Shown here one piece after another: positions 3,529-63,999 of a DNA stretch of 64,000 nt. Within the stretch, counting starts at the first letter, position 1. Every line of letters starts with the position of its first letter. This DNA is from Alphaproteobacteria bacterium. Lineage in GTDB: Bacteria; Pseudomonadota; Alphaproteobacteria; Rs-D84. Location of the stretch: positions 5,680 through 69,679 of the forward strand of contig JAFXVM010000014.1 in the NCBI GenBank assembly GCA_017524525.1, written 5' to 3'. Position numbers and translations under genes: made by a program. The notes beneath the pieces were generated by a model. The model searched no databases. It was not told the origin of the DNA and saw only the letters and a list, made by a program, of their open reading frames with translations.

Positions 3529-3560
3529 TTTGGTATAGAAAAACAAAAAAGGGGCAAAAA

Positions 3561-4976: not shown

Positions 4977-5747
4977 TTAAATATTTAATAAAATATCTTT
5001 GATATGCGTTCTGGCATCACGATATTTTTTGCGTGTTTCTTTGTCTTTGTCTATTAAATGTTGTCCAACAGACGAATTATCAGAAATAATCAGCACAGCA
5101 GATGCAGGCTTACCAATTAAATTCATAGCATTAAAAAATGTAGCAGATTCCATTTCTATGATACTTGCACCCATATCTTTAAATTCGTCAAGATGTTGAT
5201 ATTCGCAAAAAATGCTGTCCACAGAAATTGGCACGGCGTTCACAGTTTTAATATTTTGATGTTCACAAATGTGTTTGATTTCTTGGTTTAATGCGGAATT
5301 AGAATGAGCCTTTTTAAACATGTTCTTTGAATCTAATTTGTCGTATAAATATAACGATGCGCCATCGCCAGATATAGAATATTCAGGAATAATGATATCA
5401 CCCAATTTTATTTCTGGAATCAAAGCCCCAGCAGAACCAATAAACACAAATTTATCACAATTTAAATCAGCACACGACATACAAAAATCCAGGATATTTG
5501 GTGCACCAATTTTCAAATTGGCATATAAATATTTTTTGTCATTATGTACAATTTTGTGCGCGGTTATATCAACACTTTCAAATAAAAATTCAGTCTTTGT
5601 TGCAGACAAATCAAAAACTTTTTCTATGTTCCACGATGGCGCAACAAAAACACAGTCGAAATGTTCAGCAGATGGAATACCATATATCAGTTTTAATGCA
5701 TCATCTGTATTGGAATATTGTTTGAATAATTTTATTATGTTGTTCAT
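4977..5747 (-). CDS. nucleoside phosphorylase family protein (PNP/UDP-1 fold)
   Basis: FIGSAGAL, ISGDGAS and EMESATFF motifs. Start is set at the ATG preceded by AAGGA. The track start at 5768 is a TTG. Confidence 0.65.
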   Translation of the reverse strand: MNNIIKLFKQYSNTDDALKLIYGIPSAEHFDCVFVAPSWNIEKVFDLSATKTEFLFESVDITAHKIVHNDKKYLYANLKIGAPNILDFCMSCADLNCDKFVFIGSAGALIPEIKLGDIIIPEYSISGDGASLYLYDKLDSKNMFKKAHSNSALNQEIKHICEHQNIKTVNAVPISVDSIFCEYQHLDEFKDMGASIIEMESATFFNAMNLIGKPASAVLIISDNSSVGQHLIDKDKETRKKYRDARTHIKDILLNI

Positions 5748-28630: not shown

Positions 28631-28862
28631 ACTTTTTTTCTCTCTCGTGGTGCAATTTTTTCGGCACTGAACCTGATACAACATAAATTACACCATCTGC
28701 CCATTTTTTATAAAAATGCCAGATTTTTGCCCTTTCCAGTCCGTTTTTTTACACCAACAAGTACTATATATATGAACATCTTAATATAAATCAAAAATAA
28801 AGAAAAGAGAAAAAAAAGAAAAAAGTCGTCGAAACGACTTTTTATTTCTTGACTTGTTAACG

Positions 28863-33566: not shown

Positions 33567-33659
33567 GTTTTTTTTGTTTTTTATGAAAATATATATTTTT
33601 TTTGTTTTTTTTAATTTTGATTTGTGTTATAATGCCACTATAAAAGGAAGGAGATTTTG

Positions 33660-35228
33660 ATGAAAAAACTATTTTTAACCTCTGGGGTTATTTTATGCAT
33701 GGCGTGCCCAGCGCTTGCAACAACCGACATTGATTATTCTAATGGCAGTTATACTGCTGGTGGTGCAACACCTACCTGTGTGGAAGATATTACTGGTCAA
33801 ACAGAACAACTTTCAACAGCTGAATTTGAAGCGCGTTGGACTCCAATACCATATACGATTGCTTTTGCAGCGGGAACAGCGGGAACACATACACCCAGTG
33901 GTTCAACAGCATCTGTGACGCCTGTCACGTTTGATAGTACCAATATCGCATTGACTGCAAATGGATTTACACAATCTGGTTATCACTTTACGGGTTGGGA
34001 ATCTCCTGTTGATTTGACGGATGGAACTGCTGCACCAGTAGATCCGGGTTATGTTTTGTATCGTGGGACCCAGGCAAATACTCCTAATGGTGATTACAGT
34101 AGTGGTACGGTGGCATCTTACGGTTATGTCCCGGCATCTGGTACAACTGTCACACTTACTGCACAATGGGCGCCAAATACATACGACGTAGTTTATAATC
34201 CTGGTACTGCAAAAAATGGTTCTACTACTCATGCGGTGTCAGGAACCGCTTATACAGATACTGCAACATATGAAGCGGCATACACTGTGTTGAATAACAC
34301 AAACAGCAATCTTGGTTTTTCGCAAACTGGTTATCATTTTACTGGTTGGCGTGCAGATAACGACATTGTGACTCCTACATCTACTGCTTTAAGTGATTCT
34401 AATACGGCGGGCGGAACGCAATTTAGTGCGGGCGCAACACCAACGTATAAAGTCCTTGGGGCTGTCAATATGTATGCTCAATGGGCACCGGATCAATATG
34501 ATATATCGTACAATAGTGGTTTACATGGCAGTGCTTCCACGGATCCGTATGAGGTCACAAATGGTTTGACATATGATTCAACATGGACACCTGCTGCTTT
34601 TGCATCAACGGGTATCACAGCTGATTCCGGATATACATTCAGTCACTGGAATACCAGTTCAGATGATACAGGAGCCACCTATGTAGCAGGTACAGAACAA
34701 GCTGCGTGGACTTCTGAACAGGGTTTAAGTTTATATGCTATATATACTGCGAATCCTTATACAATCTCGTATAATTGTGGTTCTGCTGTTTCTGGTTCTG
34801 CGTCTACTGCGGGTGGTTCTGTTCCAGGAACACAAAATGTCTCTATGGACGGTCCATATACATTGGCAGCGAATACCTGTACAATGTCCGGTTATACGTT
34901 TAACGGTTGGTCATGTCCAAACTTACCAGGAACACCGACCATGCCTGCGGACGCAGAAACAAAGACATACTTTGCAGGTGGTGCAACAGGTACATACAGT
35001 TACGCAGGCAGCATAACATGTACAGCACAATGGAAACCAAACGACATTACTTTGAACTGGTATAATGATACAGTGGCTAATGGTGGAACGGCAATTAATG
35101 TGTCTGGTACTGATGCGGAGTCTTGTACGTATGACGATACAATTGATTTGGCTCCACTGCCAACCAAGACTGGTTATCACTTTACAGGGTGGACACTCAG
35201 AACAACACCTGCGTCACAAAACCCATAA
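33660..35228 (+). CDS. secreted flg_new (Listeria-Bacteroides) repeat protein, family member 2
   Basis: SD AAGGAGA. Leader MKKLFLTSGVILCMACPALA. Five G-Y-x-F-x-[GH]-W units separated by ...AQW.P[ND].Y... junctions. Ends TKTGYHFTGWTLRTTPASQNP. Confidence 0.8.
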   Translation: MKKLFLTSGVILCMACPALATTDIDYSNGSYTAGGATPTCVEDITGQTEQLSTAEFEARWTPIPYTIAFAAGTAGTHTPSGSTASVTPVTFDSTNIALTANGFTQSGYHFTGWESPVDLTDGTAAPVDPGYVLYRGTQANTPNGDYSSGTVASYGYVPASGTTVTLTAQWAPNTYDVVYNPGTAKNGSTTHAVSGTAYTDTATYEAAYTVLNNTNSNLGFSQTGYHFTGWRADNDIVTPTSTALSDSNTAGGTQFSAGATPTYKVLGAVNMYAQWAPDQYDISYNSGLHGSASTDPYEVTNGLTYDSTWTPAAFASTGITADSGYTFSHWNTSSDDTGATYVAGTEQAAWTSEQGLSLYAIYTANPYTISYNCGSAVSGSASTAGGSVPGTQNVSMDGPYTLAANTCTMSGYTFNGWSCPNLPGTPTMPADAETKTYFAGGATGTYSYAGSITCTAQWKPNDITLNWYNDTVANGGTAINVSGTDAESCTYDDTIDLAPLPTKTGYHFTGWTLRTTPASQNP

Positions 35229-35293: not shown

Positions 35294-35506
35294 GCGTTAA
35301 AAAACTCTTGATTTTTTTTGAAAATTTTTTGTATATACGTTTTTGCGAATCGTTTTTTTGCAAAATGCCTGATTTTCTAAAAATAAAATCCCCCAGATTT
35401 CTGCGGGTTTGTCTATACATTTTTGGCAAAAATATTTTATTTTGTCAAAAATTTGGTTTATGAAATTTTTGTGATATAATTACTAGTGAAGAGAGAAGAG
35501 AGAAAA

Positions 35507-36472
35507 ATGAAAAAGATTTTCTTAACATCAACTATTGTTTTATGCATGGCGTGCCCAGCGTTTGCTGATGACCCTGTGCCACCTACGGGCATAGCAATTG
35601 TTAACGGCGTTGCGCAAAACAATGACTGCGATCACGCTACTTTGGGTGTTTATAGTGGCTCTGTTAGTTTGGAAGCACAATGGACTGCTAAACGTTACAC
35701 TGTGACATATGACAAAGGTGCACACGCTGCGAGCGGTGTTAATAATTATGTAGACTCTTATAATGAACAAACAGGAACAGGTGGTGCCAGATACGACAGT
35801 AATTATACGGCACTGACTGGTGGTGGTGCTAATGCTGCTGCATCACAAACTGGAATTTATGCTGCGCCAGGTTACAGTTTTGTTGGTTGGACCACAGATC
35901 CAACACCTACATTTACAGATAATAATTTGAATCATGCTTGGGGTGGGGCAACTCCGTGGCAGACTGATGGCAATATAACAGTTTATGCTGCGTATAGCGC
36001 GGAAGGTATTGCGATTAGATTTGATTGCAATTATCCTTCTGGTGCATCTACGACAGAAAGTGGCACAGGTCCAGCGCCACAAAGTATTTTGATACCTATG
36101 GATACTTCTGGAACGCTCAGCGCAACATGTACATTGCCGGGTTATACATTTAATGGCTGGAATTGTACGGTTGGTTTAAGCGATTCGACAAATACTGCAT
36201 ATACATTAACAGAAGGCAGAACTTCACTTATCTCGAATGGGACCACGGTGTATATTCATAATGCCGAAGGTGTCGATTGTTATGCGAATTGGACTGCGAA
36301 TACAATTACGCTTAATTGGACAGATCCTTCTGGTACCAACACATATCAGCCGGGTTCTTGTACATATGACGGCGACGTCACATTGCCTGCTAATCCTGTT
36401 AGAACGGGGTACAAATTTGTTGGATGGACCGTTGGATCAAACCAACAAGAACAACAACAAACAAATCCATAA
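35507..36472 (+). CDS. secreted flg_new repeat protein, family member 3
   Basis: Leader MKKIFLTSTIVLCMACPAFA. Three G-Y-x-F-x-G-W units. Ends ITLNWTDP...SCTYDGDVTLPANPVRTGYKFVGWTVGSNQQEQQQTNP. Confidence 0.8.
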   Translation: MKKIFLTSTIVLCMACPAFADDPVPPTGIAIVNGVAQNNDCDHATLGVYSGSVSLEAQWTAKRYTVTYDKGAHAASGVNNYVDSYNEQTGTGGARYDSNYTALTGGGANAAASQTGIYAAPGYSFVGWTTDPTPTFTDNNLNHAWGGATPWQTDGNITVYAAYSAEGIAIRFDCNYPSGASTTESGTGPAPQSILIPMDTSGTLSATCTLPGYTFNGWNCTVGLSDSTNTAYTLTEGRTSLISNGTTVYIHNAEGVDCYANWTANTITLNWTDPSGTNTYQPGSCTYDGDVTLPANPVRTGYKFVGWTVGSNQQEQQQTNP

Positions 36473-36832: not shown

Positions 36833-37302
36833 CATATATTTGCAATATGTTCTAAAATGCCCAAAATCAATGGGCATTTTTTAATTTTACAAATCCTTTT
36901 TTTATGATAGAATTGTATCAGCGAAAGCAGAGAAGAGAGAATATATGGGATGATGGCTTTCGCAGCGAATCTATTCTTTTTTTATCGTTTGGGTCCGTCC
37001 CATCATCCCATTTTTTTTAATGTTTTTTACAAAACAGCCTTTAATCAATACTATAGAAACAAAAAATCAATATCTTGATTCGAATCGGTATTTTTTTATC
37101 TATATTTTGATTTTTTGTATGATTCGAATCGTTTTTTTGGTGATTTTTTTTCAAAAATGGACACAAAAGGTCATTTGGTGTACAAAAACACACCGAATCG
37201 ATAAGAACAAAAGCCTTTCAAAGCCACGGCTGATGGGCGTTTCAAAAAAGCAAGTAAAAAAAACAAAAAAAATTTTTTTTTAATGCTGTGATTCGTTATT
37301 AA

Positions 37303-37318
37303 ATACTATATACTGTGT
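37303..37318. promoter_or_regulatory. candidate NrdR box 1 upstream of nrdD
   Basis: atactatatactgtgt compared with the NrdR consensus acaCwAtATaTwGtgt. Confidence 0.4.
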
Positions 37319-37335
37319 CCAAAGGGAAGCGAGAG

Positions 37336-37351
37336 ACACAATATATAGTAT
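37336..37351. promoter_or_regulatory. candidate NrdR box 2 upstream of nrdD
   Basis: acacaatatatagtat. Box centres are 33 bp apart. Ends 27 nt before the nrdD ATG. Confidence 0.45.
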
Positions 37352-37377: not shown

Positions 37378-39426
37378 ATGGCGGATAACGCAAACGAAGT
37401 TCAAATTCAAGTTATATCGACGCTGACATGCGGGTTGACTTCTATTAAAAAACGCTCTGGTGAAGTTGTGCCTTTCGATGCGAAAAAGATTTTTGATGCA
37501 ATCAAAAGCGCAGTGGCAGTGACACACGAAATATCTGATGCGGACATTGCAAAGATTACCCAAGATGTATTAACAAGATTGGATGCAAAATTTTCTGGTC
37601 AAACCCCAGATGTAGAAAGCATCCAAGATATTGTTATTCAAACTTTGATGGATGCGCGTGCGTACAAAACAGCGGAAAGTTATATTATTTATCGTCAAAA
37701 ACGTGCAGAAACACGCGGATCGCTGGTTGATGCGGTTTCTGTTATCGGTGATTATGTCAGTGAAGCGGATTGGCGTGTCAAAGAAAATGCGAACATTGGT
37801 TATTCTATCGGTGGACTTATATTGCGCAGCAGCGAACGTATGACTGCTGAATATTGGTTAAGCATTTATCCAAAAGAAGTTGCCGAAGCGCACAAAACAG
37901 CGGCTTTTCACATTCATGATTTGGGTTGGTTAACAGGATATTGTGCTGGCTGGTCTTTGCGTGAATTGTTATACGAAGGTTTTAACGGTGTTCCTGGCTA
38001 TTTACAATGTGAACCTGCGAAACATATGGCTACGGCTGTATCGCACATGGTGAATTTCCTTGGTACATTACAGAACGAATTTGCTGGTGCCCAGGCGTTC
38101 TCGTCTGTTGACACTTATCTTGCGCCGTACGTTCGTCTTGATAAATTATCCTATGCAGATGTAAAAAATTCTATGCAGACTTTGGTATTTAATTGTTCTG
38201 TACCTTGTCGTTGGGGAACACAAACTCCGTTTATTAATTTCACTTTCGATTGGACTTGTCCAAAAGATTTGCGTGAACAGCGTCCATTTGTTGGCAAAAA
38301 GATGGTTGATTTCACATATGGTGATTTGCAACCTGAAATGGACATGATTAACAAAGCCTTTATCGAAGTTATGACAGAAGGCGATGCTTTGGGACGTCCA
38401 TTTACATTCCCAATTCCAACATATAATATCACAGACGATTTTCCGTGGGAACATCCAAATGTAAAGCCTTTGTTTGATTTGGCTGCTAAATATGGTATTC
38501 CTAATTTCCAGAATTTCTTGAACAGCGATTTGAATCCAACAGATGTTCGTTCTATGTGTTGCAGATTGCGTCTTGATGTGCGTGAATTATTGAAACGCGG
38601 TGGCGGTTTGTTCGGCAGTGCGGAAAAGACAGGGTCTATTGGTGTTGTGACAATTAATTTGGCTCGCCTTGGTTATAAGCACAAGGGCGACCGCGAAGGT
38701 TTATTGCGTGAATTAAAAACATTGCTTGATTTAGCACGTGATTCTTTGGAAATCAAACGTAAAATTATTTCCAAGAATTTGGAAAGGGGATTATATCCAT
38801 TTACGAAACGTTATTTGGGCAATTGGAATCATCACTTTTCTACGATTGGGGTAAATGGTGCCAACGAAATGGTAATGAACTTTACAAATGGCAACGACAA
38901 TATCGCAACAGTATTTGGTAAAAACCTGGTATTGGAAGTGATGGATTTCATAAGAACTAATCTGGCAGACTTCCAAGAAAAGACAGGTAATTTGTATAAT
39001 TTGGAAGCAACCCCAGCCGAAGGCTGCGCATATCGCTTTGCGAAAACAGATAAAAAAGAATTCCCAGATATATTAACAGCGGGAACAGCGGATGCACCGT
39101 ATTATACAAATTCAACTCAATTGCCGGTGTATTTCACAGACGACCCATTTGTCGCCTTGGAACACCAAGAAGAATTGCAACGCAAATATACAGGTGGCAC
39201 AATGTTGCACCTTTATATGGGTGAACCTGTTTCATCTGGCGAAGCGGCGGAAAAAATCGTTCGCACAATCTTTGAAAATTACAAAGTGCCATATATGACA
39301 TTGACACCAACATTTTCAATTTGTCCAAAGCACGGCTATTTACCGGGACGGCATGATTTCTGTCCAAAGTGCGATGCAGAAATTGCGGCTAACGATTGCC
39401 AATGCAAATGCAAGAATCACGAATAA
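37378..39426 (+). CDS. nrdD: anaerobic ribonucleoside-triphosphate reductase large polypeptide (class III RNR) lacking the glycyl-radical C-terminus
   Basis: SD AAGGGGA. N-terminal ATP-cone (IKKRSGEVVPFDAKKIFDAIKSA), conserved core, and an end in the Cys cluster FCPKCDAEIAANDCQCKCKNHE*. No R-x-x-G-Y motif inside. Confidence 0.9.
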   Translation: MADNANEVQIQVISTLTCGLTSIKKRSGEVVPFDAKKIFDAIKSAVAVTHEISDADIAKITQDVLTRLDAKFSGQTPDVESIQDIVIQTLMDARAYKTAESYIIYRQKRAETRGSLVDAVSVIGDYVSEADWRVKENANIGYSIGGLILRSSERMTAEYWLSIYPKEVAEAHKTAAFHIHDLGWLTGYCAGWSLRELLYEGFNGVPGYLQCEPAKHMATAVSHMVNFLGTLQNEFAGAQAFSSVDTYLAPYVRLDKLSYADVKNSMQTLVFNCSVPCRWGTQTPFINFTFDWTCPKDLREQRPFVGKKMVDFTYGDLQPEMDMINKAFIEVMTEGDALGRPFTFPIPTYNITDDFPWEHPNVKPLFDLAAKYGIPNFQNFLNSDLNPTDVRSMCCRLRLDVRELLKRGGGLFGSAEKTGSIGVVTINLARLGYKHKGDREGLLRELKTLLDLARDSLEIKRKIISKNLERGLYPFTKRYLGNWNHHFSTIGVNGANEMVMNFTNGNDNIATVFGKNLVLEVMDFIRTNLADFQEKTGNLYNLEATPAEGCAYRFAKTDKKEFPDILTAGTADAPYYTNSTQLPVYFTDDPFVALEHQEELQRKYTGGTMLHLYMGEPVSSGEAAEKIVRTIFENYKVPYMTLTPTFSICPKHGYLPGRHDFCPKCDAEIAANDCQCKCKNHE

Positions 39427-39471
39427 CAAAAAACAAAAAAACAAAAAATAAAAAAGGAAAGGAGGAATACT

Positions 39472-39651
39472 ATGAACCCACAACAAAGAACACCATGCGA
39501 AACATTTTCACGTTCAATGGGATATATTAGACCAGTTAAAAATTTTAACATTGGTAAATATGCAGAATTTTGTGAAAGAAAAACCTTTACAGAGGCGAAC
39601 TCTTTGACAGCAGGTGCACGTCACAGCGAATTATTGAAAAAGGCTGCATAA
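39472..39651 (+). CDS. stand-alone NrdD glycyl-radical segment (59 aa, not in the track), in frame with nrdD behind a single TAA
   Basis: Hand translation gives MNPQQRTPCETFSRSMGYIRPVKNFNIGKYAEFCERKTFTEANSLTAGARHSELLKKAA*. SD AAAGGAGG at 39458-39465. Confidence 0.7.
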   Translation: MNPQQRTPCETFSRSMGYIRPVKNFNIGKYAEFCERKTFTEANSLTAGARHSELLKKAA

Positions 39652-39669: not shown

Positions 39670-40374
39670 ATGAAACAAATACAAATCGGCGGTTTGGTTT
39701 CCTTTACAACGATAGATTATCCTGGGAAATTGGCCGCTGTATTATTTTTAAAAGGGTGTCCGCTTAATTGCAAATACTGTTCTAATCCGCACCTTATCCC
39801 TTTGGGCGAAGGCGAATATGATCCAGAAAAAGTATTTGATTGGCTGCGCGCGCGTGTCGGCAAATTGGAAGGCGTTGTCTTTTCAGGGGGCGAAGCGTTA
39901 ATGCAAGCGGATGCGACAATTGAATATATGAAACGTGTGCATGATTTGGGTTTTGCGATTGGTCTGCATACTAATGGTTTTTATCCTGATTTGTTAAAGA
40001 AAGTTAATGACACAGTTGATTGGATTGGTCTTGATTTCAAAGCAACGCGTGAACATTATCATGATTTAACAGGTATAGATGTTGCATACGACCGCATGAT
40101 AGAATCTTTGAAATATTGGGTATCGACTGGTCATGGATTAGAAGTTCGCACAACATGCGACCCGCGCTTTGTAAGCAAAACAGATTTGTTGGAAATCGCA
40201 CAAACAGCGTCCTGTATGGGTGCAAAAAATTTTGCTGTGCAAAAATATACACCATATCACGAATGCGAATGTCATGAAACCAGCGCGGCTGATCGCGAAC
40301 AGTTTTTCAATGACGAAGAATTAAAAAAGAACATAGAAAGTTTGTTTAACACAGTTGTATGGCGTAACAATTAA
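39670..40374 (+). CDS. nrdG: anaerobic ribonucleoside-triphosphate reductase activating protein (radical SAM)
   Basis: CPLNCKYCSNP (CX3CX2C), GVVFSGGEAL, and position next to nrdD. Confidence 0.85.
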   Translation: MKQIQIGGLVSFTTIDYPGKLAAVLFLKGCPLNCKYCSNPHLIPLGEGEYDPEKVFDWLRARVGKLEGVVFSGGEALMQADATIEYMKRVHDLGFAIGLHTNGFYPDLLKKVNDTVDWIGLDFKATREHYHDLTGIDVAYDRMIESLKYWVSTGHGLEVRTTCDPRFVSKTDLLEIAQTASCMGAKNFAVQKYTPYHECECHETSAADREQFFNDEELKKNIESLFNTVVWRNN

Positions 40375-40400
40375 ATAATGGGTTCTGTTTTTTTTGCCTT

Positions 40401-40430
40401 GCCCCCGTTATCCGTGCGGGGGTATTTTTT
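40401..40430 (+). terminator. intrinsic terminator after nrdG
   Basis: gcccccg-ttatccgtg-cgggggt followed by atttttt. Confidence 0.7.
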
Positions 40431-40487: not shown

Positions 40488-43400
40488 TTATTGTATAACC
40501 TGATAACCCATAAAGTTATACCCGGTTCGTGTTTCTGCTGTGGGTAATGTAAAGTCATCATCATACGAACATTGATTCGTGGTCATTTGAGTGTTTCCAT
40601 CATACCACGTAATATTGTAAGTATTTGGATTACACGGTGCCACAGGGTTTTTGCCGTATGAACCAAACAGGACATTTTCAACCGGTTTGTCTAATAAGTA
40701 TTCCGATAGACTGCTGTTAAGGCATTCTTTGGAACAAGTGCTGGCATCGTCAAATCCTTTAATATACACCCAATTTGAATCATTTACATTTACTGTTGAT
40801 TGACTATTTAATTGATATCCGGTCATATTAATCCAACAATGTTTACCAGTGCTGGTTGAATTAAATGTAGCATAAGATTTTGTTTCGAAATCTGTACTGC
40901 CAGCGGTTGTGTTACACGATGCGCGTCCCATAATCTTGGTTCCATTATTATATACCAATTCAAATGTTCCCGCGGTCATACCGTTTGAAGAACCAGCATA
41001 TAATTCACTAGTGCCACTGCCAGTAGAACCGTCCAATTCCAGATATTTTGTAGAAGATAAATTCAAATTTCTGGATTGATTAATATAATTAACCAATGGG
41101 CCATCTGTCGTATTCATTGCGGCATAACCAGTGTTGCAACCACTGATAGATGATACAGCACATGCACCAATGGCGGTTATTTCTAGTTCGTCAGAGAAAT
41201 ATATTCTGGTTGCTGCGGTTTGATTAGCATAGGTCACACTTGATGCGCCACGTACTGGATTTACCACAGAGCATTGTTGTGTGCTGGGGTTTTTATAACA
41301 GAACCGCTTATCTTTTGCACCTGTATCAGAATATGAGTATCCGCTTTCGCATTGTTCTTTACCTTGGTCTTTGGTCGTACTAATGTCCCATGTTCCGCCA
41401 GGGCAATAATACCCATTGCCCGGACATATCGAACATGTTGTGTTGCCCATCGCCAAATATTCACCCGGCGCACAATTATATTGTGGAATACCACATTGTC
41501 TGGTATCACCCAAATCACCAAATTCAGGGGTCATGGCAGTTTGTTTTGCACAGTCATGTGCACATTCATACTGACAATCAGACAATGTTTTATCTTTCAT
41601 TGGCGTTAATATTGTCACAGCAGGATTAACAGATACTGTGCTGCCACTGCCGATTTTATAACTGGTTAAACTGCAATGACAATCATATTTGCCGTCCGCA
41701 TTTACATCACATGATGCGGTTCCGTTAACTTCTAGATCAGTACCATATACCAATCTAAATGTTCCGTTTTGCATACCAATATAATCACCTGTGCCTTCAG
41801 CCGCGCGACCGCTGTTTACACCACTATCACCATTTATTGCACGATAATGAACTTCTTTGTTGTTGTCAAAAGGCATACCAAACACAGGTGATTCATAATT
41901 TGATAATGGACCCGCAGAACCAACCAATGTTTCACCACTGTTTTGACATGTGGCATCTGTTATTGCACATGCCCCCACCGGAACAACAGAATTCACAACA
42001 GAATCAGTATAAGTGCGTCTTGTTGCTGTGGCATTAGCATAGGTTGCATCCGCATAATCAATTTTTAACAAGTCTTTGCAGTTTACTGTTTCTTCTTTGT
42101 AACAGAAACCAATATACGCTGTGCCTTGGGCTGAATTTGGATAATTACTTAAACATTTTTCTTTGCCTTGGTCATCTAAGCTACTGGCTTGGACGTTGTT
42201 GACACCTTTGCAGTAATAACCCGCCGGGCAAATTGCACAGGTTGTTTCGTTCTTTGGTAAATAATATCCAGGATTACAAGAATACGTTGGTATTTCACAT
42301 GCCATCTGTTGCCCGTATGTCCCCAACAAAGCAGACATCATTTTATTCACTATATTTGGATTTTCTGAGAAATTCACACACTTAGATGCGCAGTCGTTTG
42401 CACATCCTGAATTTGAATCGGCTTTTTTAACGAATGCCCAATCTGAATCATTTACATTTGTCGCACTGCCACCATTTAGTTGATACCCCGTCATATTGCA
42501 CCAACAATATTTACCAGTGCTGGATGAATTAAAGGTATTATTAGATCTGGTTTCGCCAACATTAACACCATCGGTTGAATTGCAAGATGCGCGAACATTT
42601 ATCTTTGTTCCGTCTGTCCATTGAATTATGCCCGTACCGTTCGTCATACCTGTTGAATCACCGTATCCATAGGATGCAGAACTGTTCTTTCCATCATCAC
42701 CATTTAACGCGCGGTATTTACAATTCGCCTTTGAAATATTGTGCGATTGATTGACATAATTCACAAGTACCCCATTTGTCGCAGGTGTCACAACATAACC
42801 GTTCGCTGTATCGCAAGTCAGTGCGGTTATTGCACATGCACCGATGTTTTCTGTTTCTGTGCCTGGCGTATAAGCGCCATAAGATGCGGTTGTGTTCGCA
42901 TACGTCACAGATGTAGAATTTGATACTTTGTTCAAAGTTGAACAGTTGTCGGTACCCGTTTCTTTATTACATTGTGTCTCAGCCCATGAACCGACCACAG
43001 ATTTGGTGAATCCGCTTGGACAATCGTATATTCCTTGTTCTTCTGTTGTGCTGTATGAAAAGAAACCGCCAGGACAGAAATGATTGATTGTACATTGTAC
43101 ACAAGCGGTTGCTTCTTTTGGTAAATAATATCCCGGCGCGCAAGTGTATTGGCTTATGCTGCACGCTTTCTGTTGTCCTAAATCATCAAATAAAATAACG
43201 CGGATGTCTCTATTACGGGCAATATCCATTGCGCACGTCTGGGCACATTTTGATTCAGCTGCTGACTGAAGTGGAAGTGCATCATAACTGCTGGTTGTAC
43301 CCTTAGCAGGATTAACCGTCACAGCAGAACCACCAGACAAAGTATAACTGTCCATACTGCAACTACAAGCATATTTCCCATCCTTGTAAAGGTAGGATGC

Positions 43401-46379
43401 ATATCCGTGTATTTTTGCACTGCCCAAATCAACTTCGTATTCACCGTTTAACATCCCCGTGTGTGAACCTTGGTTGTTATCACCACTGTTTTCACCATTA
43501 TCACCATTTATTGCACGATATCTGATATTTGGATTTGCTGTAAATGGTACAGATTGGATTATTGATGCCGACAAAGGACTATTTGATGCCGGTTCTATGC
43601 TATAACCTGTTGGACAGGTCAGGGTCGTTATCGCACATGCGCCCGGCGTTTCTAATGCGTCGCCACCACCCAGATAGTGTAAAACATTAGTTTTTGTATT
43701 TGCGTACCCCACAGACTGACCCTCTACAGGATTAATAGTGGCGCATGACACATCCGCATTTATTTTATAACAATATTCGCTGCTTCGTGCGCCCGCCGCA
43801 GACGTATAAGTGTCGTCTGCACCTTCTGCTTTTGTACAATTTTCGGCACCTTGGTCATCGTTTTCAGAATAAGTGAACGAACCCCCAGGGCAATAAAATC
43901 CAACCTTGCATCCAGAGCAAGTTGTGTCACCCGCTGCTAAATAATATCCAGGATTGCAAGTATATGTTCCAGCGCTGCATTCCATTTGTTGTCCCAATTC
44001 ACCCAATAATAATTCTATACCCGGTACTGTTGCTGAGCTTGTGCTTTTGCTCGAACCTGTGTCTTTATTGTCGTCGCTCTTTGAAACCGACACGGTTCTT
44101 TTGTTGATAAAGAAACTATATAAACAAGAATTAACACACTCGGCTGCACATATTTGATAATCGTGCTTTTTATCTTCGAACACCCAATCAGAATCGTTTA
44201 CACTTACTGCGGATGCATTATTTAATTGATATCCCGTCATATTGCACCAGCAATATTCACCTGTATCCGTTAAATCAACCTGGTCATTCGGCAGGGAAGA
44301 AACTGTTTTTTGTTTTGTATTTGCAGTACTTGGGTCTGTATAGGTAATCTTATTACTGGTTGCGCTGCAAACCGCACGACCAAATATTTGTGTTCCATTA
44401 TTATAAGCAACAGCAAATTGTCCGGTGGTCAAGCCAGTGGTTGAAGCACTGCTGTTATCTGTTGAACCGTCAATTGCATACCATTTTGTGTTTGCCCTTG
44501 ATATGCTGGATGATTGATTAATATACGCGGATAATGCGCCATTTGTACCAGATGAAGTATAACCCGTGTTACAAGTCAACGATTGTATCGCACATGCACC
44601 CACTGGGCTGATTTCTGTTCCAATATTGTAATAATCCCTGTAATTTGCAGATGTGTTTGCATAAGTAGCGGTTCCGTTTGTGACTTTATTAAATTCGGCA
44701 CAATTTTTTGTTCCGCTGTTCCCGTAACATTGGGATTCGTGTGTAGAATTCGCATCGGAATTTGGATATAATGGTGTGCCTATGTCATCCATTTTTAAAT
44801 CTGCACAACTTTTTATACCGCAATTTTTATCGTTGCTGTATGAACATGTTGCGCCAACACAATAAGAACCCGATGGACAGCCTGAACAACTGAAACCGCC
44901 CGCCGCCAAATATTGACCCGCTGGACATGTAATTGTGTCGCTGCAGGCGCTTTCACTTGTTGAACCAGTGGCAGAGAAAGTTTGATTGCCACTTGTGTCA
45001 AGTGGACATGCGGTTCTTCCTTGGTCTGCAACGGCGCTGTATTGATAAACGTTCGCCCTTGGACAATAAGAACCCGCTGGACATGTTGCGCATTGGGTTG
45101 TTGCCTTTGGTAAATATTGACCCGCCGGACATTCATATCCAACATAACAATCGCTTTGTTCATCAGAGCCCGCATCGGAATTAGGTGTCGCAACTGGACA
45201 GTTGTTTAATCCTTGGTCACTTCCGTTCGGTGTAAATGTTCCGCCCGCGCAATAATGGTCAGCAGGGCATATCACACATTGGTTTGTCGCGCCACTAAGA
45301 TATTGACCCGCACTGCAAGTCACAGAATCAGCAACACATTCCATTTGTTTAACAAGCGAACCCAAAAGTGCAAAGTTGACATCAAGTAACACTTCAAGAC
45401 AGCCTATAGAACAATAAGAAGCGCAACGTTCATTCGAAGTGCCGCCTTCCAAAAATTTCCAAGTTGGTGCAGATATTGTTTGTGTGGAACCATTGGCAAC
45501 AGCATAACTGTCTATTTTACACCAACAATTTGCCCCCGTGGTCCCAACGGTAAATGCGTTTGCGGGACGCGAAGCAACACCACCGTCCGCCCAAATTATG
45601 TTATATTTTTCTTCGTCGCTCAGTGAATCAAAACCCGACAAATCATGTTGTGAAACCGTTGTTGTATTACAAGTCGCAACACCACTTATTACCGTACCGT
45701 CAACCCAGCCAATTTGCCATTGACCATTGGTTAATCCCGTTGCATTAAAGCTAGTTTCGTTATCACCATTCAAAGCGCGCACCTTGGTGGTTGTTCCAGA
45801 CATATTGTGCGATTGATGGGTATAATTTGCCAATGGACCATTTGTTGATGGAATCTTTGAATACCCGCTGTCGCAAGTCAATGCAGTTAATGCACACGCG
45901 CCAATGTTATCTGTTTCTTGGCCACTTGGATATATCTTGTATGCCACAGATGTTTGGGTTGCATATGTTGGTGTTCCATTTAAAACCTTGTTTATTTTAT
46001 CACAAGTATCTGTCCCTGTTTCGCTGTAACATTGAGAATAACTCCATGAACCGGCAGCAGAATTTTTATATTGGTCATCATCACATGCTTTAATACCTTG
46101 GTCGGTGCCATCAAAAACAAATGTTCCGCCCCCGCAATAATTTTTTGTTGTACATTGAACACATGTCGCGGTTGTCGCGTCCAAATATGTTCCCGGATTG
46201 CAAGTGTAAGAATTTGCCTGGTACTTTGCGAAAAATTTCAGTGTGCCACCATCACTTCCCAAACCTGTATCACAGGTTTCTTGGCTGCTTGAAGTAATCA
46301 AAGTCGATTCGGCAACCCCAGAATATACAACGAATACAGCAAATACTGATGTCAGGAATATCTTGATTTTTGTGTTCAT
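40488..46379 (-). CDS. giant secreted cysteine-rich modular repeat protein with a C-terminal flg_new repeat, family member 4 (1963 aa from M16)
   Basis: Leader MNTKIKIFLTSVFAVFVVYSGVA, six Cys-rich modules plus two head-only units, and terminal YNITWYDGN...QCSYDDDFTLPTAETRTGYNFMGYQVIQ. Confidence 0.85.
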   Translation of the reverse strand: MNTKIKIFLTSVFAVFVVYSGVAESTLITSSSQETCDTGLGSDGGTLKFFAKYQANSYTCNPGTYLDATTATCVQCTTKNYCGGGTFVFDGTDQGIKACDDDQYKNSAAGSWSYSQCYSETGTDTCDKINKVLNGTPTYATQTSVAYKIYPSGQETDNIGACALTALTCDSGYSKIPSTNGPLANYTHQSHNMSGTTTKVRALNGDNETSFNATGLTNGQWQIGWVDGTVISGVATCNTTTVSQHDLSGFDSLSDEEKYNIIWADGGVASRPANAFTVGTTGANCWCKIDSYAVANGSTQTISAPTWKFLEGGTSNERCASYCSIGCLEVLLDVNFALLGSLVKQMECVADSVTCSAGQYLSGATNQCVICPADHYCAGGTFTPNGSDQGLNNCPVATPNSDAGSDEQSDCYVGYECPAGQYLPKATTQCATCPAGSYCPRANVYQYSAVADQGRTACPLDTSGNQTFSATGSTSESACSDTITCPAGQYLAAGGFSCSGCPSGSYCVGATCSYSNDKNCGIKSCADLKMDDIGTPLYPNSDANSTHESQCYGNSGTKNCAEFNKVTNGTATYANTSANYRDYYNIGTEISPVGACAIQSLTCNTGYTSSGTNGALSAYINQSSSISRANTKWYAIDGSTDNSSASTTGLTTGQFAVAYNNGTQIFGRAVCSATSNKITYTDPSTANTKQKTVSSLPNDQVDLTDTGEYCWCNMTGYQLNNASAVSVNDSDWVFEDKKHDYQICAAECVNSCLYSFFINKRTVSVSKSDDNKDTGSSKSTSSATVPGIELLLGELGQQMECSAGTYTCNPGYYLAAGDTTCSGCKVGFYCPGGSFTYSENDDQGAENCTKAEGADDTYTSAAGARSSEYCYKINADVSCATINPVEGQSVGYANTKTNVLHYLGGGDALETPGACAITTLTCPTGYSIEPASNSPLSASIIQSVPFTANPNIRYRAINGDNGENSGDNNQGSHTGMLNGEYEVDLGSAKIHGYASYLYKDGKYACSCSMDSYTLSGGSAVTVNPAKGTTSSYDALPLQSAAESKCAQTCAMDIARNRDIRVILFDDLGQQKACSISQYTCAPGYYLPKEATACVQCTINHFCPGGFFSYSTTEEQGIYDCPSGFTKSVVGSWAETQCNKETGTDNCSTLNKVSNSTSVTYANTTASYGAYTPGTETENIGACAITALTCDTANGYVVTPATNGVLVNYVNQSHNISKANCKYRALNGDDGKNSSASYGYGDSTGMTNGTGIIQWTDGTKINVRASCNSTDGVNVGETRSNNTFNSSSTGKYCWCNMTGYQLNGGSATNVNDSDWAFVKKADSNSGCANDCASKCVNFSENPNIVNKMMSALLGTYGQQMACEIPTYSCNPGYYLPKNETTCAICPAGYYCKGVNNVQASSLDDQGKEKCLSNYPNSAQGTAYIGFCYKEETVNCKDLLKIDYADATYANATATRRTYTDSVVNSVVPVGACAITDATCQNSGETLVGSAGPLSNYESPVFGMPFDNNKEVHYRAINGDSGVNSGRAAEGTGDYIGMQNGTFRLVYGTDLEVNGTASCDVNADGKYDCHCSLTSYKIGSGSTVSVNPAVTILTPMKDKTLSDCQYECAHDCAKQTAMTPEFGDLGDTRQCGIPQYNCAPGEYLAMGNTTCSICPGNGYYCPGGTWDISTTKDQGKEQCESGYSYSDTGAKDKRFCYKNPSTQQCSVVNPVRGASSVTYANQTAATRIYFSDELEITAIGACAVSSISGCNTGYAAMNTTDGPLVNYINQSRNLNLSSTKYLELDGSTGSGTSELYAGSSNGMTAGTFELVYNNGTKIMGRASCNTTAGSTDFETKSYATFNSTSTGKHCWINMTGYQLNSQSTVNVNDSNWVYIKGFDDASTCSKECLNSSLSEYLLDKPVENVLFGSYGKNPVAPCNPNTYNITWYDGNTQMTTNQCSYDDDFTLPTAETRTGYNFMGYQVIQ
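40635..46208 (-). repeat. six tandem ~270-320-aa Cys-rich coding modules (A, heads, A, B, A, B, A)
   Basis: Module nt ranges: 45324-46208, 43965-44933, 43149-43964, 42285-43148, 41481-42284 and 40635-41480. Head-only units lie at 44934-45323. Boundaries come from my residue count of the Y-x-C-x-P-G heads. Confidence 0.75.
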
Positions 46380-46557
46380 TTCTTTTTCTCTCTTGCAATA
46401 CTTTCTATGGGCATTGTTGCACAATAGAATAACCTTGTAAACAAAAAAATTTGATATTTTTGTATTTTGTTAAAAATATTAAAAAACCGCAGAAAACCGC
46501 CGTTTTTTGATATGGTTTGTATATACAAAAAATAACATGTTTTTGTGTAAAAAACAC

Positions 46558-62250: not shown

Positions 62251-63999
62251 TCAAGCTGTTCGGAGTGAGCCAAAGTTTTTAATATAATTATCGGCTGTAA
62301 TTTGTGCTTCACTTGTTTTATCTTTCCAGTTTTCTAAAAAGTTTTCGCGTTTTACTTTCATGCTACCCAATGCGAAAGAGTGTGTTTTTCCATAGGATTC
62401 TAACATATCCCAATAAGCAATTAAGTCATGAATTGTGTCTGGATTGTCTTTTCTCCATTCATCAGGATCTGTTTCCAATTTATGACGTTTAGAAGCATCT
62501 TCATATAATTTAATATCTTTCTCTAAATCATCATGCGCTGGTCCTGCAGGCATAAGCCCCAAGTCTGTTTTAGCCACTTCTAAATCCGCATCATTAGCAA
62601 TCACACGCCCAGATAATCCGCCTCCAGCAGCCAATGTAGTTAATTTTAATGTGACATTACGTTTGACGTTTTCTGCCACAAGATTAGCCCGTTTATCGGC
62701 ATCGTTCTTTGCCCATTGTTCATATTCGCCCTTTAAGTGCTTATATTTGCCAATGTTGTTGCCAATTTTTGTTCTGCGATGTTGAATAAAATTATGCACG
62801 GTGGTCGCAGCCAATCCTGCACCACGTATCGCCAATCCCAAAGTTTTATCAATGGCACCAGTAACAAATTTAAGTCCTTCGTTTTTATTCCAAGATAACT
62901 GGTCATCAGAAAAGATTTTCATATCTTTGGTTGCTTCTTTCAAAGACTCGTATGTTCTGCTCATGGTTAAGCCATATTTTGCAACGGACAACACTTCAAG
63001 TGCTGTTTTTGCTTTGGCAGTTTCCCCTTCTTTGGCAGCAATAGTGATGATATACATTGCAACTTGTCTAAGTTGATGGCCGTTTCTGAGTGCACCTTCA
63101 TAAGCATCTGGTATTTGCTCTTTGATTGTTCCCATGGTTTTTACAAACCAATCGAAATGCTTTTTAGTCACTCTATCAGAATCTACAACCCCACGTAATT
63201 TTGAATCGTCTTTTTTATTTATGATTCCATCAAGTCCTTCGGTCGGTTTAACTCCCGCCTTGTCTAAACCTTTCATTATATTTTGGGAAAATGGCGAATA
63301 GAAAACCCTTGCACCACGGTTGTGGTCAAAAAAGCGTCTAAAATGGTTTTCATAAGTATCGTTTTTCCATTTTTTTATTTTTTGAGGAAAATTCTTTACA
63401 TCCACAGGATCTGGTGGAACATAATCATCTGATTCTTTGTTTTCATAATCTGTATCTGCAATAGCAGATTCCAACGCATCTTTGATAACAGAGTTATAAC
63501 CAGTTTTTTCTAAAAATTTGGTTCTTATGGTGGAACTAGTTAATAATTTATCAAAAATTTTTTTATAGGCATTAGTTTTAAACCAGCCTATGCGTTTAGT
63601 TTTATCCGGAATTTCATACCACTTTTTCGGATCATCTTTATCAAAAGGAGGGGTATATAAAGCGGTTAATTCAGCCGATGTCAAATGAACAGTTGGACCG
63701 CCACCTGGTCCTCCGGGACCAGCCATATTATATCCGACGGGCGTGCCACTGGGCCAGTATTCATCGTCAGGTGGTACTTCGGAACCAGGTTGTGGACCGT
63801 AATTGGTTATATAATTAACAACAGATTCAATTTTATCTCTGAATCCGTCTTTATCTTTATCAAAATCACCATCCTCTAACTTTTTACAAAAGGTGTCGTA
63901 TTTCATATTTTCATTAAATACAGACGGTAATTTGTTTTCAAAACGCGACTTAAGAACAGAACGGTTGTTCTTTAAAAAGGTACCAAGATTTTTAAAGAC
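62251..63999 (-). CDS. large hypothetical protein, probably N-terminally truncated by the window edge
   Basis: The track gives 551 aa from the ATG at 63906. The frame stays open to nt 63999 and no SD precedes that ATG. Contains a GPGGPGGGP tract. No catalytic motif recognised. Confidence 0.5.
   Translation of the reverse strand, partial: VFKNLGTFLKNNRSVLKSRFENKLPSVFNENMKYDTFCKKLEDGDFDKDKDGFRDKIESVVNYITNYGPQPGSEVPPDDEYWPSGTPVGYNMAGPGGPGGGPTVHLTSAELTALYTPPFDKDDPKKWYEIPDKTKRIGWFKTNAYKKIFDKLLTSSTIRTKFLEKTGYNSVIKDALESAIADTDYENKESDDYVPPDPVDVKNFPQKIKKWKNDTYENHFRRFFDHNRGARVFYSPFSQNIMKGLDKAGVKPTEGLDGIINKKDDSKLRGVVDSDRVTKKHFDWFVKTMGTIKEQIPDAYEGALRNGHQLRQVAMYIITIAAKEGETAKAKTALEVLSVAKYGLTMSRTYESLKEATKDMKIFSDDQLSWNKNEGLKFVTGAIDKTLGLAIRGAGLAATTVHNFIQHRRTKIGNNIGKYKHLKGEYEQWAKNDADKRANLVAENVKRNVTLKLTTLAAGGGLSGRVIANDADLEVAKTDLGLMPAGPAHDDLEKDIKLYEDASKRHKLETDPDEWRKDNPDTIHDLIAYWDMLESYGKTHSFALGSMKVKRENFLENWKDKTSEAQITADNYIKNFGSLRTA

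What the first reader, a model, noticed from the sequence alone, without database searches (positions are those of the whole stretch)
39424..39651. nrdD is split by one in-frame TAA, placing the glycyl-radical motif on a separate 59-aa ORF with its own Shine-Dalgarno
Seen: the nrdD ORF ends at TAA 39424-39426 immediately after the Cys cluster FCPKCDAEIAANDCQCKCKNHE. The essential C-terminal glycyl-radical segment is missing from it. That segment is encoded by a small ORF at 39472-39651: ...TPCETFSRSMGYIRPVKNFNIGKYAEFCERKTF... The family pattern is S-R-[IV]-x-G-Y-x-R-P-V-x2-[WF]-N-x-G-K-x2-E-x3-R. The small ORF has a strong SD (AAAGGAGG, 39458-39465) 6 nt before its ATG. It is exactly in frame with nrdD: TAA plus 15 sense codons (QKTKKQKIKKERRNT) and then ATG. 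nrdG follows intact, and candidate NrdR boxes precede the operon, so the locus looks maintained. Inference, three options. (a) A genuinely two-piece class III RNR whose radical-bearing peptide is a separately translated, replaceable subunit, similar in logic to the GrcA/YfiD spare part of pyruvate formate-lyase; I am not aware of this being described for NrdD. (b) A recent nonsense mutation. (c) A sequencing error or stop read-through.
Basis: partly seen in the sequence, partly recalled or inferred. Interest (0 to 1): 0.65.

Follow-up and report, generated by a model that had tools for sequence, protein, structure and literature searches.

The report
Two-piece anaerobic ribonucleotide reductase
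The oxygen-sensitive enzyme that makes DNA building blocks is encoded here as two proteins, a 682-residue catalytic body and a separate 59-residue peptide carrying the radical glycine; this layout is conserved across a whole enzyme subfamily, the peptide gene also occurs alone in phages, and I found no published description of it.

Summary
nrdD stops at TAA 39424-39426, just after the zinc ribbon. A 59-codon ORF (39472-39651) with its own Shine-Dalgarno carries the glycyl-radical motif, and nrdG follows.

It is not a lesion or an error. The same 59-aa protein lies on 53+ independent contigs. All 80 related GTDB species genomes examined (Candidatus Enterousia, reduced-genome gut Alphaproteobacteria) are split at the same point. 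Spacers run 22-59 nt in all three frames (34/28/24), so the in-frame relation in this window is a coincidence and read-through is excluded. An SD core precedes the ATG in 80 of 80 loci. dN/dS is 0.08 for the peptide and 0.04 for the large subunit.

The split is subfamily-wide.
- All 120 best relatives of the large subunit lack the Gly motif (Rhodospirillum, Magnetospirillum, Sutterella, Coriobacteriia and others).
- 71 of 80 metagenome loci are split and none is fused.
- Cupriavidus necator H16 pHG1 and Ralstonia solanacearum carry the same three genes.

At least 80 of 303 IMG/VR viral contigs encode the peptide alone.

I found no description in the searchable literature.

Verdict: a genuine two-polypeptide class III RNR whose radical is supplied in trans. 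A GrcA-like replaceable role is plausible but untested.

The parts
36854..36880 (+). Terminator-like hairpin ending the upstream DUF378 gene; it marks the 5' limit of the nrd transcription unit.
   Evidence: 10-pair stem followed by a T run. One search gives DUF378 for the gene upstream.
37303..37351 (+). Pair of NrdR-box-like 16-mers (37303-37318 ATACTATATACTGTGT; 37336-37351 ACACAATATATAGTAT), 33 bp apart, 27 nt upstream of the start codon.
   Evidence: 2 and 1 mismatches to ACACWATATATWGTGT; 3 hits in the window against 2 expected, so only position and tandem layout argue for function. Sequence.
37378..39426 (+). nrdD large subunit, 682 aa: ATP-cone, catalytic barrel with the finger-loop SMCCRL, and a zinc ribbon C649-x2-H652...C662-x2-C665. 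It ends 17 residues after the ribbon and has no glycyl-radical loop.
   Evidence: invariant columns. GenBank MBR6010447.1.
39424..39426 (+). TAA stop of the large subunit.
   Evidence: A stop sits at the equivalent place in 86 of 86 related loci (TAA 85, TAG 1).
39427..39471 (+). A-rich 45-nt intergenic spacer with the Shine-Dalgarno AAAGGAGG at 39458-39465, 6 nt before the ATG.
   Evidence: Spacers are 22-59 nt in all three frames in relatives. An SD core lies 4-8 nt (12 nt in one locus) before the ATG in 80 of 80 loci.
39472..39651 (+). Small subunit, 59 aa: the glycyl-radical loop (C9, S13-R-S-M-G17-Y-I-R-P-V, N26-x-G-K, E35-R) plus a conserved C-terminal tail ...GARHSELLKKAA.
   Evidence: dN/dS 0.077. 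GenBank MBR6010448.1, annotated 'hypothetical protein'.
39520..39522 (+). Codon GGA for Gly17, the predicted radical-bearing glycine.
   Evidence: The residue is invariant in alignments A1 and A2.
39670..40374 (+). nrdG, the radical-SAM activase (NrdG2 type).
   Evidence: TIGR02495, 178 bits against a cut-off of 131.
40400..40424 (+). Terminator-like hairpin closing the three-gene operon.
   Evidence: No terminator-like site was found in the gaps between the large gene, the small gene and nrdG.

Best explanation
The locus encodes a class III (anaerobic) ribonucleotide reductase built from two polypeptides.

Shown:
- The large subunit (682 aa) holds the ATP-cone, the catalytic barrel with the finger-loop cysteines, and the zinc ribbon.
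- The 59-aa product of the next gene holds the glycyl-radical loop and the C-terminal tail, which in canonical NrdD are the last ~40 residues of the same chain.
- The three genes (large, small, nrdG) form one operon. The small gene has its own ribosome-binding site; in other lineages it is translationally coupled by an ATGA overlap.

Inferred:
- NrdG abstracts the hydrogen from Gly17 of the small subunit.
- The peptide's loop inserts into the barrel of the large subunit next to the finger-loop cysteine, as the covalently attached loop does in T4, T. maritima and P. copri NrdD.
- Catalysis then proceeds as usual.

More speculative:
- Because oxygen destroys a glycyl radical enzyme by cleaving the chain at the radical glycine, putting that glycine on a small separate peptide means only the peptide needs replacing. 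It may also give the activase easier access.

The split is not specific to this genome. It is the ordinary architecture of the NF006126-type NrdD subfamily.
For: 1) Anatomy. The Pfam NRDD profile is divided cleanly at position 529/530 between the two ORFs. NF006126 and NrdG2 both score above their cut-offs. No terminator-like site lies in the gaps between the three genes.

2) Reproducibility. The exact peptide occurs on 53 contigs, or 68 index blocks.

3) Lineage-wide conservation.
- 196 peptide clusters were found; the best 120 are all 54-93 aa.
- 250 GTDB species genomes encode a relative of the peptide. The best 80, plus six more contigs and the window, are all split.
- Spacers are 22-59 nt, in frame 0/1/2 = 34/28/24.
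- 9 of 29 in-frame loci have extra in-frame stops, and an SD core is present in 80 of 80.

4) Selection. dN/dS is 0.077 for the small ORF and 0.036 for the large C-terminal region, at dS of about 1.4-1.6. This holds in genomes under 1 Mb that have shed most biosynthesis (PMC12306168).

5) Subfamily-wide.
- The best 120 clusters matching a profile of large subunits all have the zinc ribbon and no Gly motif. They include Rhodospirillum rubrum, Magnetospirillum, Rhodomicrobium, Sutterella, Duodenibacillus and Coriobacteriia.
- Of 80 metagenome loci with the peptide motif, 71 are split with the truncated gene directly upstream and none is fused.
- Four of the remaining nine are also split operons, either cut by a contig end or separated by ~2 kb.

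6) Cultured examples. C. necator H16 pHG1 carries a 676-aa large gene, a 66-aa gene that PGAP calls 'nrdD', and nrdG. R. solanacearum has the same layout with an ATGA overlap. PMC2864759, citing Siedow 1999, reports the pHG1 nrdDG region as required for anaerobic growth.

7) Action in trans is plausible. 303 IMG/VR viral contigs encode the peptide, and the best 80 have no large subunit or nrdG within 4 kb. Three further loci sit among phage genes.
Against: There is no protein-level or activity evidence for either product in any organism that I could access. The one genetic study of this subfamily (Siedow et al. 1999) is not held, so I do not know whether the small ORF was included or noticed.

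The AlphaFold run could not place the peptide: pLDDT was below 50 over residues 683-741, because the alignment covered only the large part. Docking into the barrel is therefore inferred from canonical NrdD structures, not modelled.

At least one fused relative with the same CxxH...CxxC...CE-x-W pattern exists (fragment P0337), so the split is not obligatory for this sequence type.

The 'cheap replacement' advantage is an argument by analogy only.
Confidence: 0.85

Rival explanations
1. A recent nonsense mutation has truncated nrdD in this genome, and the downstream ORF is a decaying remnant (a pseudogene in the making).
For: In this one window the small ORF is in frame with nrdD, and TAA differs from several sense codons by one base.
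Against: The stop is present in all 86 related loci from 80 species. The spacer has diverged in length and frame. Both parts are under strong purifying selection, and SD and ATG are kept in 80 of 80 loci. The same split point occurs in relatives only 55-60% identical, including cultured bacteria.
Confidence: 0.01
2. A sequencing or assembly error in the A-rich homopolymer region created a false stop.
For: The junction is made of A runs, which are prone to length errors. One close relative (L004) differs by one A.
Against: The identical 59-aa and 682-aa proteins were called independently on dozens of assemblies from different projects. The TAA lies before the A runs, and the split is seen in high-GC genomes with no homopolymers.
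Confidence: 0.01
3. One fused protein is made after all, by programmed stop-codon read-through, frameshifting or recoding of TAA.
For: In the window the two ORFs are in frame with no further stop between them. The spacer is A-rich and potentially slippery.
Against: Frame relations across relatives are 34/28/24, as expected for no constraint. 9 of 29 in-frame spacers carry more stops. Other lineages have gaps from -4 to +231 nt, and in L144 about 2 kb. A conserved SD and ATG would be pointless for a read-through product. The other genes in the window terminate normally at TAA.
Confidence: 0.03
4. The small protein is not the normal radical carrier but only an occasional accessory. It might be a GrcA-like repair factor, or a regulator or decoy for NrdG, while the large subunit obtains its radical in some other way.
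For: Orphan copies exist in phages and in some genomes away from any nrdD. This shows the peptide can have a life apart from its operon.
Against: No large subunit of this subfamily carries a Gly motif of its own (0 of 120). No other radical source is encoded in the operon. The peptide keeps every residue of the NrdD radical-loop signature, including the invariant Gly. Gene order and coupling suggest production together with the large subunit.
Confidence: 0.05

Closest known systems
Canonical single-chain class III RNR (NrdD of E. coli, phage T4, Thermotoga maritima, Prevotella copri) with its activase NrdG
   Same: It has the same ATP-cone, barrel, finger-loop cysteines, C-terminal zinc ribbon, radical-loop signature and adjacent NrdG. 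The chemistry is presumably the same.
   Different: In the solved enzymes the glycyl radical domain is one piece: zinc site, then the buried Gly loop, then the tail (P. copri residues 676-739, Gly711; PMC11226230). Here the chain ends after the zinc ribbon, and the Gly loop and tail are a separate gene product. The second zinc-ligand position is His, not Cys (invariant H652).
GrcA/YfiD of E. coli and Y06I of phage T4, the autonomous glycyl radical cofactors ('spare parts') of pyruvate formate-lyase
   Same: Each is a small separate protein that carries the radical glycine, is activated by the cognate radical-SAM activase, and completes a large catalytic body in trans. Phage-encoded versions exist (PMC8683613; compare).
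   Different: GrcA is a back-up for a PFL that has its own glycine and has been cleaved by oxygen. Here the large subunit never has a glycine, so the peptide is obligatory. The peptide is homologous to the NrdD C-terminus (PF13597), not to the PFL-type Gly_radical domain. Only YfiD and Y06I have been validated as spare parts, and the authors call spare parts for other glycyl radical enzymes merely possible.
Split class II RNR, NrdJa + NrdJb of Pseudomonas aeruginosa
   Same: This is an RNR whose C-terminal module is encoded by a separate adjacent gene across a whole subclass (PMC5704485).
   Different: NrdJb carries the Cys-rich and zinc-finger reductant-shuttling domain, not the radical. The radical there comes from adenosylcobalamin. 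A 2022 family-wide analysis discusses split domains as possibly distinct to class II (PMC9669993).
Small subunits of other glycyl radical enzymes (HpdC of 4-hydroxyphenylacetate decarboxylase; BSS beta and gamma)
   Same: These are small extra polypeptides needed by a glycyl radical enzyme.
   Different: They do not carry the radical glycine, which stays on the large subunit (established knowledge of those enzymes; not tested here).

Membership tests
Class III ribonucleotide reductase (NrdD) | NrdD catalytic domain recognised by curated profiles above their thresholds | tested here: met
   PF13597 E 1e-168. NF006126 scores 1023 bits (cut-off 548) and TIGR02487 scores 465 bits (cut-off 326) on the large ORF. 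The nearest solved structures are all NrdD.
Class III ribonucleotide reductase (NrdD) | Finger-loop cysteine(s) that become the thiyl radical | tested here: met
   S392-M-C394-C395-R-L is invariant across 14 diverse large subunits. The assignment as the finger loop rests on the SCCR/QCCR motifs described in PMC4493059 and PMC9669993.
Class III ribonucleotide reductase (NrdD) | C-terminal zinc ribbon (four Cys in T4 NrdD) | tested here: inconclusive
   C649-x2-H652 ... C662-x2-C665 is invariant, giving three Cys and one His. Metal binding cannot be tested here. A further near-invariant Cys lies 8 residues before the Gly on the small subunit (143 of 145).
Class III ribonucleotide reductase (NrdD) | Radical glycine in the R-x-x-G-Y motif at the C-terminus of the same polypeptide | tested here: not met
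   The motif is present and conserved, but on a separate 59-aa gene product. No large subunit of the subfamily has it (0 of 120). The system is therefore a class III RNR with a variant subunit structure.
Class III ribonucleotide reductase (NrdD) | Dedicated radical-SAM activase NrdG encoded alongside | tested here: met
   TIGR02495 NrdG2, 178 bits against a cut-off of 131, 18 nt downstream of the small gene.
Class III ribonucleotide reductase (NrdD) | Glycyl radical formation and NTP reduction under anoxia | not testable with these tools
   This needs EPR and an activity assay. The only indirect evidence is genetics on C. necator pHG1, cited in PMC2864759.
GrcA/YfiD autonomous glycyl radical cofactor | PFL-type glycyl radical domain (Pfam Gly_radical PF01228; InterPro IPR011140) | tested here: not met
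   The small ORF matches only NRDD-type profiles; there is no PF01228 hit at E <= 0.01.
GrcA/YfiD autonomous glycyl radical cofactor | Acts as a substitute for the glycine-bearing C-terminus of an enzyme that normally has its own | tested here: not met
   The partner large subunit has no glycine loop of its own. It works like GrcA in being a trans-acting radical carrier, but it is not a member of that family.
Split RNR of the NrdJa+b kind | C-terminal module of the catalytic subunit encoded by an adjacent separate gene throughout a subclass | tested here: met
   The resemblance is in gene architecture only: the class, the module and its function all differ.

The most novel reading that the evidence does not exclude
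In this NrdD subfamily the radical-bearing peptide is a diffusible, exchangeable protein cofactor rather than a fixed subunit. NrdG would charge it off the enzyme. It would dock into any compatible large subunit and, after oxygen damage, simply be swapped for a new one.

Phages would exploit this by carrying only the ~50-70-aa peptide gene (303 IMG/VR contigs; phrog_4132, 'unknown function') to re-arm or boost the host's class III RNR during infection.

That would make this the first spare-part system for a glycyl radical enzyme other than pyruvate formate-lyase, and a new kind of phage auxiliary gene.
Probability: 0.35. Interest if true: 0.85.

Novelty: new variant of a known kind. Interest (0 to 1): 0.72.

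Why it matters
Class III RNR is a textbook glycyl radical enzyme, described as an alpha2 homodimer with the radical glycine on the catalytic chain (for example PMC2795772).

If a large subfamily splits the radical carrier from the catalytic body, three things follow. That subfamily includes denitrifiers and phototrophs (Cupriavidus, Ralstonia, Rhodospirillum, Magnetospirillum), human-gut Sutterella, and reduced-genome gut symbionts.

- It is a natural experiment on a long-standing problem: how the buried glycine loop leaves the barrel to meet the activase and returns.
- It makes directly testable the open question raised in PMC8683613, whether spare-part proteins exist for glycyl radical enzymes beyond PFL. 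Cultured, genetically tractable hosts are available.
- It gives a function to a widespread unannotated small protein. That protein is labelled 'hypothetical protein' in GenBank or mislabelled as a 66-aa 'nrdD' in RefSeq, and a related phage family is listed as of unknown function.

There is also a practical point. Surveys that filter RNR sequences by length or require the Gly motif will misjudge these enzymes, for example the 400-1100 residue filter in PMC9531940.

Tried and rejected
1) Structure of the complex.
- AlphaFold2 on the large+small concatenation gave mean pLDDT 67, with the peptide below 50. This is uninformative, because the alignment covered only the large part.
- Adding peptide rows failed. 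MAFFT spread the 59-aa rows over the large subunit.
- No fold search was therefore run.

2) Solved-structure searches with the peptide profile, and with a fused fragment, found nothing useful. The idea that the conserved Cys 8 residues before the Gly completes the Cys3(His) zinc site across subunits stays a speculation.

3) Literature.
- Nine full-text searches used phrases such as 'split nrdD', 'truncated NrdD', 'separate gene', 'spare part', 'bipartite' and 'phage-encoded'. Targeted reading covered RNR-family and glycyl-radical-enzyme papers.
- None gave a description of a split NrdD.
- The key 1999 paper on A. eutrophus nrdD/nrdG (PMC93980) is not held.

4) Alternative genetic code. I considered and dropped it: neighbouring genes terminate normally and the spacer is not conserved as coding.

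5) Other RNR genes in the window. Ten large ORFs were scanned and none is an RNR. Whether the genome has another RNR elsewhere could not be tested.

6) Cluster look-ups for taxonomy of the diverse peptides returned almost no names.
Full report
**1. The observation**

- The nrdD ORF ends ...FCPKCDAEIAANDCQCKCKNHE with TAA at 39424-39426.
- After a 45-nt A-rich spacer containing AAAGGAGG (39458-39465) and 6 more bases, an ATG at 39472 opens a 59-codon ORF, MNPQQRTPCETFSRSMGYIRPVKNFNIGKYAEFCERKTFTEANSLTAGARHSELLKKAA.
- nrdG follows at 39670-40374.
- The two ORFs are in frame (48 nt from TAA to ATG).

Curated profiles put the break precisely.
- Pfam NRDD positions 1-529 of 562 lie on the large ORF and 530-562 on the small one.
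- NF006126 (1023 bits, cut-off 548) and NrdG2 TIGR02495 (178 bits, cut-off 131) are clearly met.
- Homologues show the large gene starts at ATG 37378, giving 682 aa.

The three genes sit between terminator-like hairpins at 36854-36880 and 40400-40424, with none in the gaps between the genes. Two NrdR-box-like 16-mers, 33 bp apart, lie just upstream of the start.

**2. Not an error, not a fresh mutation, not read-through**

The identical 59-aa protein is recorded on 53 contigs. It is GenBank MBR6010448.1 ('hypothetical protein'), next to MBR6010447.1 ('ribonucleoside triphosphate reductase').

A search with the peptide returned 196 clusters. The best 120 are all 54-93 aa; the longer ones are upstream mis-starts. 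A search with the large subunit returned only ~682-aa proteins among the best 120.

A scan of one genome per GTDB species found 250 genomes encoding a relative of the peptide. The best 80 are Candidatus Enterousia and unnamed gut or rumen Alphaproteobacteria. This is order Rs-D84, with genomes under 1 Mb that lack most biosynthetic pathways (PMC12306168).

In all 86 loci that could be parsed the gene is split at the same place.
- The stop is TAA in 85 and TAG in 1.
- The spacer is 22-59 nt.
- The ATG is in frame 0, 1 or 2 relative to nrdD in 34, 28 and 24 cases.
- A near-identical relative (L004) already differs from the window by one A, which breaks the frame.
- 9 of 29 in-frame spacers carry further stops, and an SD core lies 4-8 nt (12 nt in one locus) before the ATG in 80 of 80 loci.

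Nei-Gojobori dN/dS over 79 distinct sequences is 0.077 for the peptide core and 0.036 for the last 180 codons of the large gene, at dS of about 1.4-1.6.

The in-frame relation in this window is therefore a coincidence. Both pieces are maintained by selection as separate genes.

**3. The split is the norm for a whole NrdD subfamily**

A profile of the peptide searched against 1.84 billion representative proteins gave 2661 hits. The best 150 are all short (47-118 aa), begin with Met, and carry ER[TQ]xCE[VI][WYF][TS]R[VS]MGYxRPVxx[FW]NxGKxxExxxR. One (P0337) is a fragment of a fused gene.

Among the best 80 loci (GC 0.41-0.72):
- 71 have a truncated nrdD directly upstream, ending 11-45 residues after the zinc ribbon, typically ...CPKCDEERLAAKRRRLAA*.
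- The peptide gene follows after a gap of up to about 230 nt or overlaps the stop as ATGA.
- None is fused.
- Of the other nine, three are cut by a contig end but have nrdG downstream, one has the large gene 2 kb upstream, and five are true orphans.

A profile of 14 diverse large subunits retrieved as its best 120 clusters only proteins with the zinc ribbon and no Gly motif. Where named, they come from Rhodospirillum rubrum, Magnetospirillum fulvum, Rhodocista, Rhodomicrobium, Telmatospirillum, Burkholderiales, Sutterella, Duodenibacillus and Coriobacteriia. The window's large subunit is 55-60% identical to these.

Annotated replicons show the same three genes.
- C. necator H16 pHG1 has a 676-aa 'ribonucleoside triphosphate reductase', a 142-nt gap with GAAGGAG, a 66-aa CDS that PGAP names 'nrdD', and then nrdG.
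- R. solanacearum has the small gene as 'hypothetical protein', overlapping both neighbours.
- In C. metallidurans CH34 the genome paper names Rmet_5137 and Rmet_5139 as NrdD and NrdG, skipping the gene between them.
- In all, 162 plasmid or chromid records match the peptide.

The pHG1 nrdDG region is reported as needed for anaerobic growth (PMC2864759, citing Siedow et al. 1999). That primary paper is not held.

**4. How it most likely works**

[quoted passage not shown] The large subunit here aligns to P. copri NrdD up to CPKCGS at residue 704. The fission therefore falls in the short link between the zinc ribbon and the Gly loop.

What is shown:
- The large subunit keeps the ATP-cone, the barrel, the finger-loop SMCCRL and the ribbon (C-x2-H ... 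C-x2-C, all invariant).
- The peptide keeps the complete radical-loop signature.

What is inferred:
- NrdG generates the radical on Gly17 of the peptide.
- The peptide's loop occupies the barrel beside the finger-loop cysteine.

What is speculative:
- Oxygen cleaves glycyl radical enzymes at the glycine. A separate peptide would make repair cheap and might ease access for the activase.
- The near-invariant Cys 8 residues before the Gly (143 of 145), together with the Cys-to-His change in the ribbon, suggests a possible inter-subunit metal site. I could not test this.

**5. Phage copies**

Three of the nearest non-Enterousia peptides sit among phage genes, with no nrdD or nrdG nearby.
- L088 carries Sak single-strand annealing protein, YqaJ and HNH genes.
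- L089 is mostly unknown ORFs.
- L090 has endolysin, holin, Tad2-like, the peptide, then integrase.

L088 and L089 have Enterousia-like GC (0.39, 0.42), and their peptides carry the Enterousia-type FSRSMG signature.

IMG/VR holds 303 contigs encoding the peptide. In all 80 of the best, the peptide is a 42-90-aa orphan with no large subunit or nrdG within 4 kb. PHROGs lists the matching family, phrog_4132, as of unknown function.

This parallels T4 Y06I, the phage spare part for PFL (PMC8683613). It is the best indirect sign that the peptide acts in trans on a pre-existing large subunit.

**6. Comparison with what is known**

The system is a class III RNR by every testable criterion except one: the glycine is not on the catalytic chain.
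- It works like GrcA/YfiD in using a trans-acting radical carrier. It is not a member of that family, because the domain differs and the partner has no glycine of its own.
- It resembles NrdJa+b only in gene architecture.

I found no description of a split NrdD in 8 million full texts. A 2022 family-wide analysis discusses split domains as possibly distinct to class II. A 2021 paper states that only YfiD and Y06I are validated spare parts and that others are merely possible.

Databases already hold the small ORFs, under inconsistent names. The primary paper on A. eutrophus was not readable. The claim of novelty is therefore 'not found', not 'proven absent'.

**7. Verdict**

This is a new variant of a known kind: a two-polypeptide class III RNR, widespread, apparently undescribed in the literature I could search, and directly testable in cultured bacteria.

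- Confidence in the two-polypeptide reading: 0.85.
- Probability of the exchangeable, phage-exploited cofactor reading: about 0.35.
- Interest: 0.72.

Noticed in passing
L088 4501-4740; L089 4501-4704; L090 4501-4710; L175-L254 (IMG/VR): Orphan genes for NrdD-type glycyl-radical peptides (42-90 aa) lie in phage and prophage contexts, with no nrdD large subunit or nrdG within 4 kb. 303 IMG/VR contigs encode a relative, and the best 80 are all orphans. The matching family phrog_4132 is listed as 'unknown function'. L088 and L089 have Enterousia-like GC and the Enterousia-type FSRSMG motif.
   Followed up: partly
window 39496-39498 (Cys9 of the small ORF) and 39322-39372 (zinc ribbon of the large ORF): A Cys 8 residues before the radical Gly is present in 143 of 145 diverse peptides. 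The ribbon of the large subunit is C-x2-H...C-x2-C, with an invariant His where T4 NrdD has the second Cys. An inter-subunit metal site is conceivable but was not tested.
   Followed up: partly
window 39382-39423 (tail ...IAANDCQCKCKNHE) and 39592-39648 (tail of the small ORF); L091-L170: The free ends created by the split carry recurrent features. Many large-subunit tails form a charged stretch ending in ...LAA or AA (51 of 120), reminiscent of ssrA-like C-termini. Enterousia peptides invariably end ...KKAA or KMAA. Cys pairs or triplets (CxCxC, CC, CGC) recur at the very end of either the large or the small subunit in different lineages. Their role (degron, redox tail or metal site) is unknown.
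   Followed up: no
L171 3444-3644 (C. necator H16 pHG1); L173 3462-3638 (R. solanacearum); GenBank MBR6010448.1: The small gene is annotated inconsistently: 'nrdD, anaerobic ribonucleoside-triphosphate reductase' (66 aa) in RefSeq, 'hypothetical protein' in GenBank records, and unannotated or skipped elsewhere (Rmet_5138 is not mentioned in the CH34 genome paper).
   Followed up: partly
L144 (large gene 6-1544, peptide 3501-3671, nrdG 4645-5325); L174 (Bradyrhizobium plasmid): There are variants of the operon. In one metagenome contig about 2 kb separates the large gene from the peptide gene. On a B. japonicum plasmid the large gene is interrupted by an ISRj2 transposase while the peptide gene and nrdG stay intact.
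   Followed up: no
P0337 (114-aa fragment, ENA contig of 614 nt): This is a fused relative with the same CxxH...CxxC ribbon, followed after 11 residues by ECEVWTRVMGYFRPV. It shows that fused forms of this sequence type exist. The direction of evolution (fission or fusion) is unresolved.
   Followed up: no
window 40488-46424 (- strand): A 1978-aa ORF immediately downstream on the opposite strand is made of long Cys-rich repeats (motifs such as C..G.Y...G...C..CP.G.YC.GG), with no Pfam hit on record for its homologues. Listeria-Bacteroides repeat (Flg_new) proteins lie at 33657-35228 and 35486-36472. These are probably surface proteins of this reduced-genome symbiont.
   Followed up: no
L255 (IMGVR_UViG_3300029906_000277): An IMG/VR 'viral' contig carries the complete Enterousia-type operon (large subunit, peptide, nrdG). 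It is either a misclassified host fragment or a prophage flank.
   Followed up: no
window 25802-28684 (-), 9544-11259 (-), 62251-63906 (-): Three large ORFs (960, 571 and 551 aa) have no Pfam match at E <= 1e-5.
   Followed up: no
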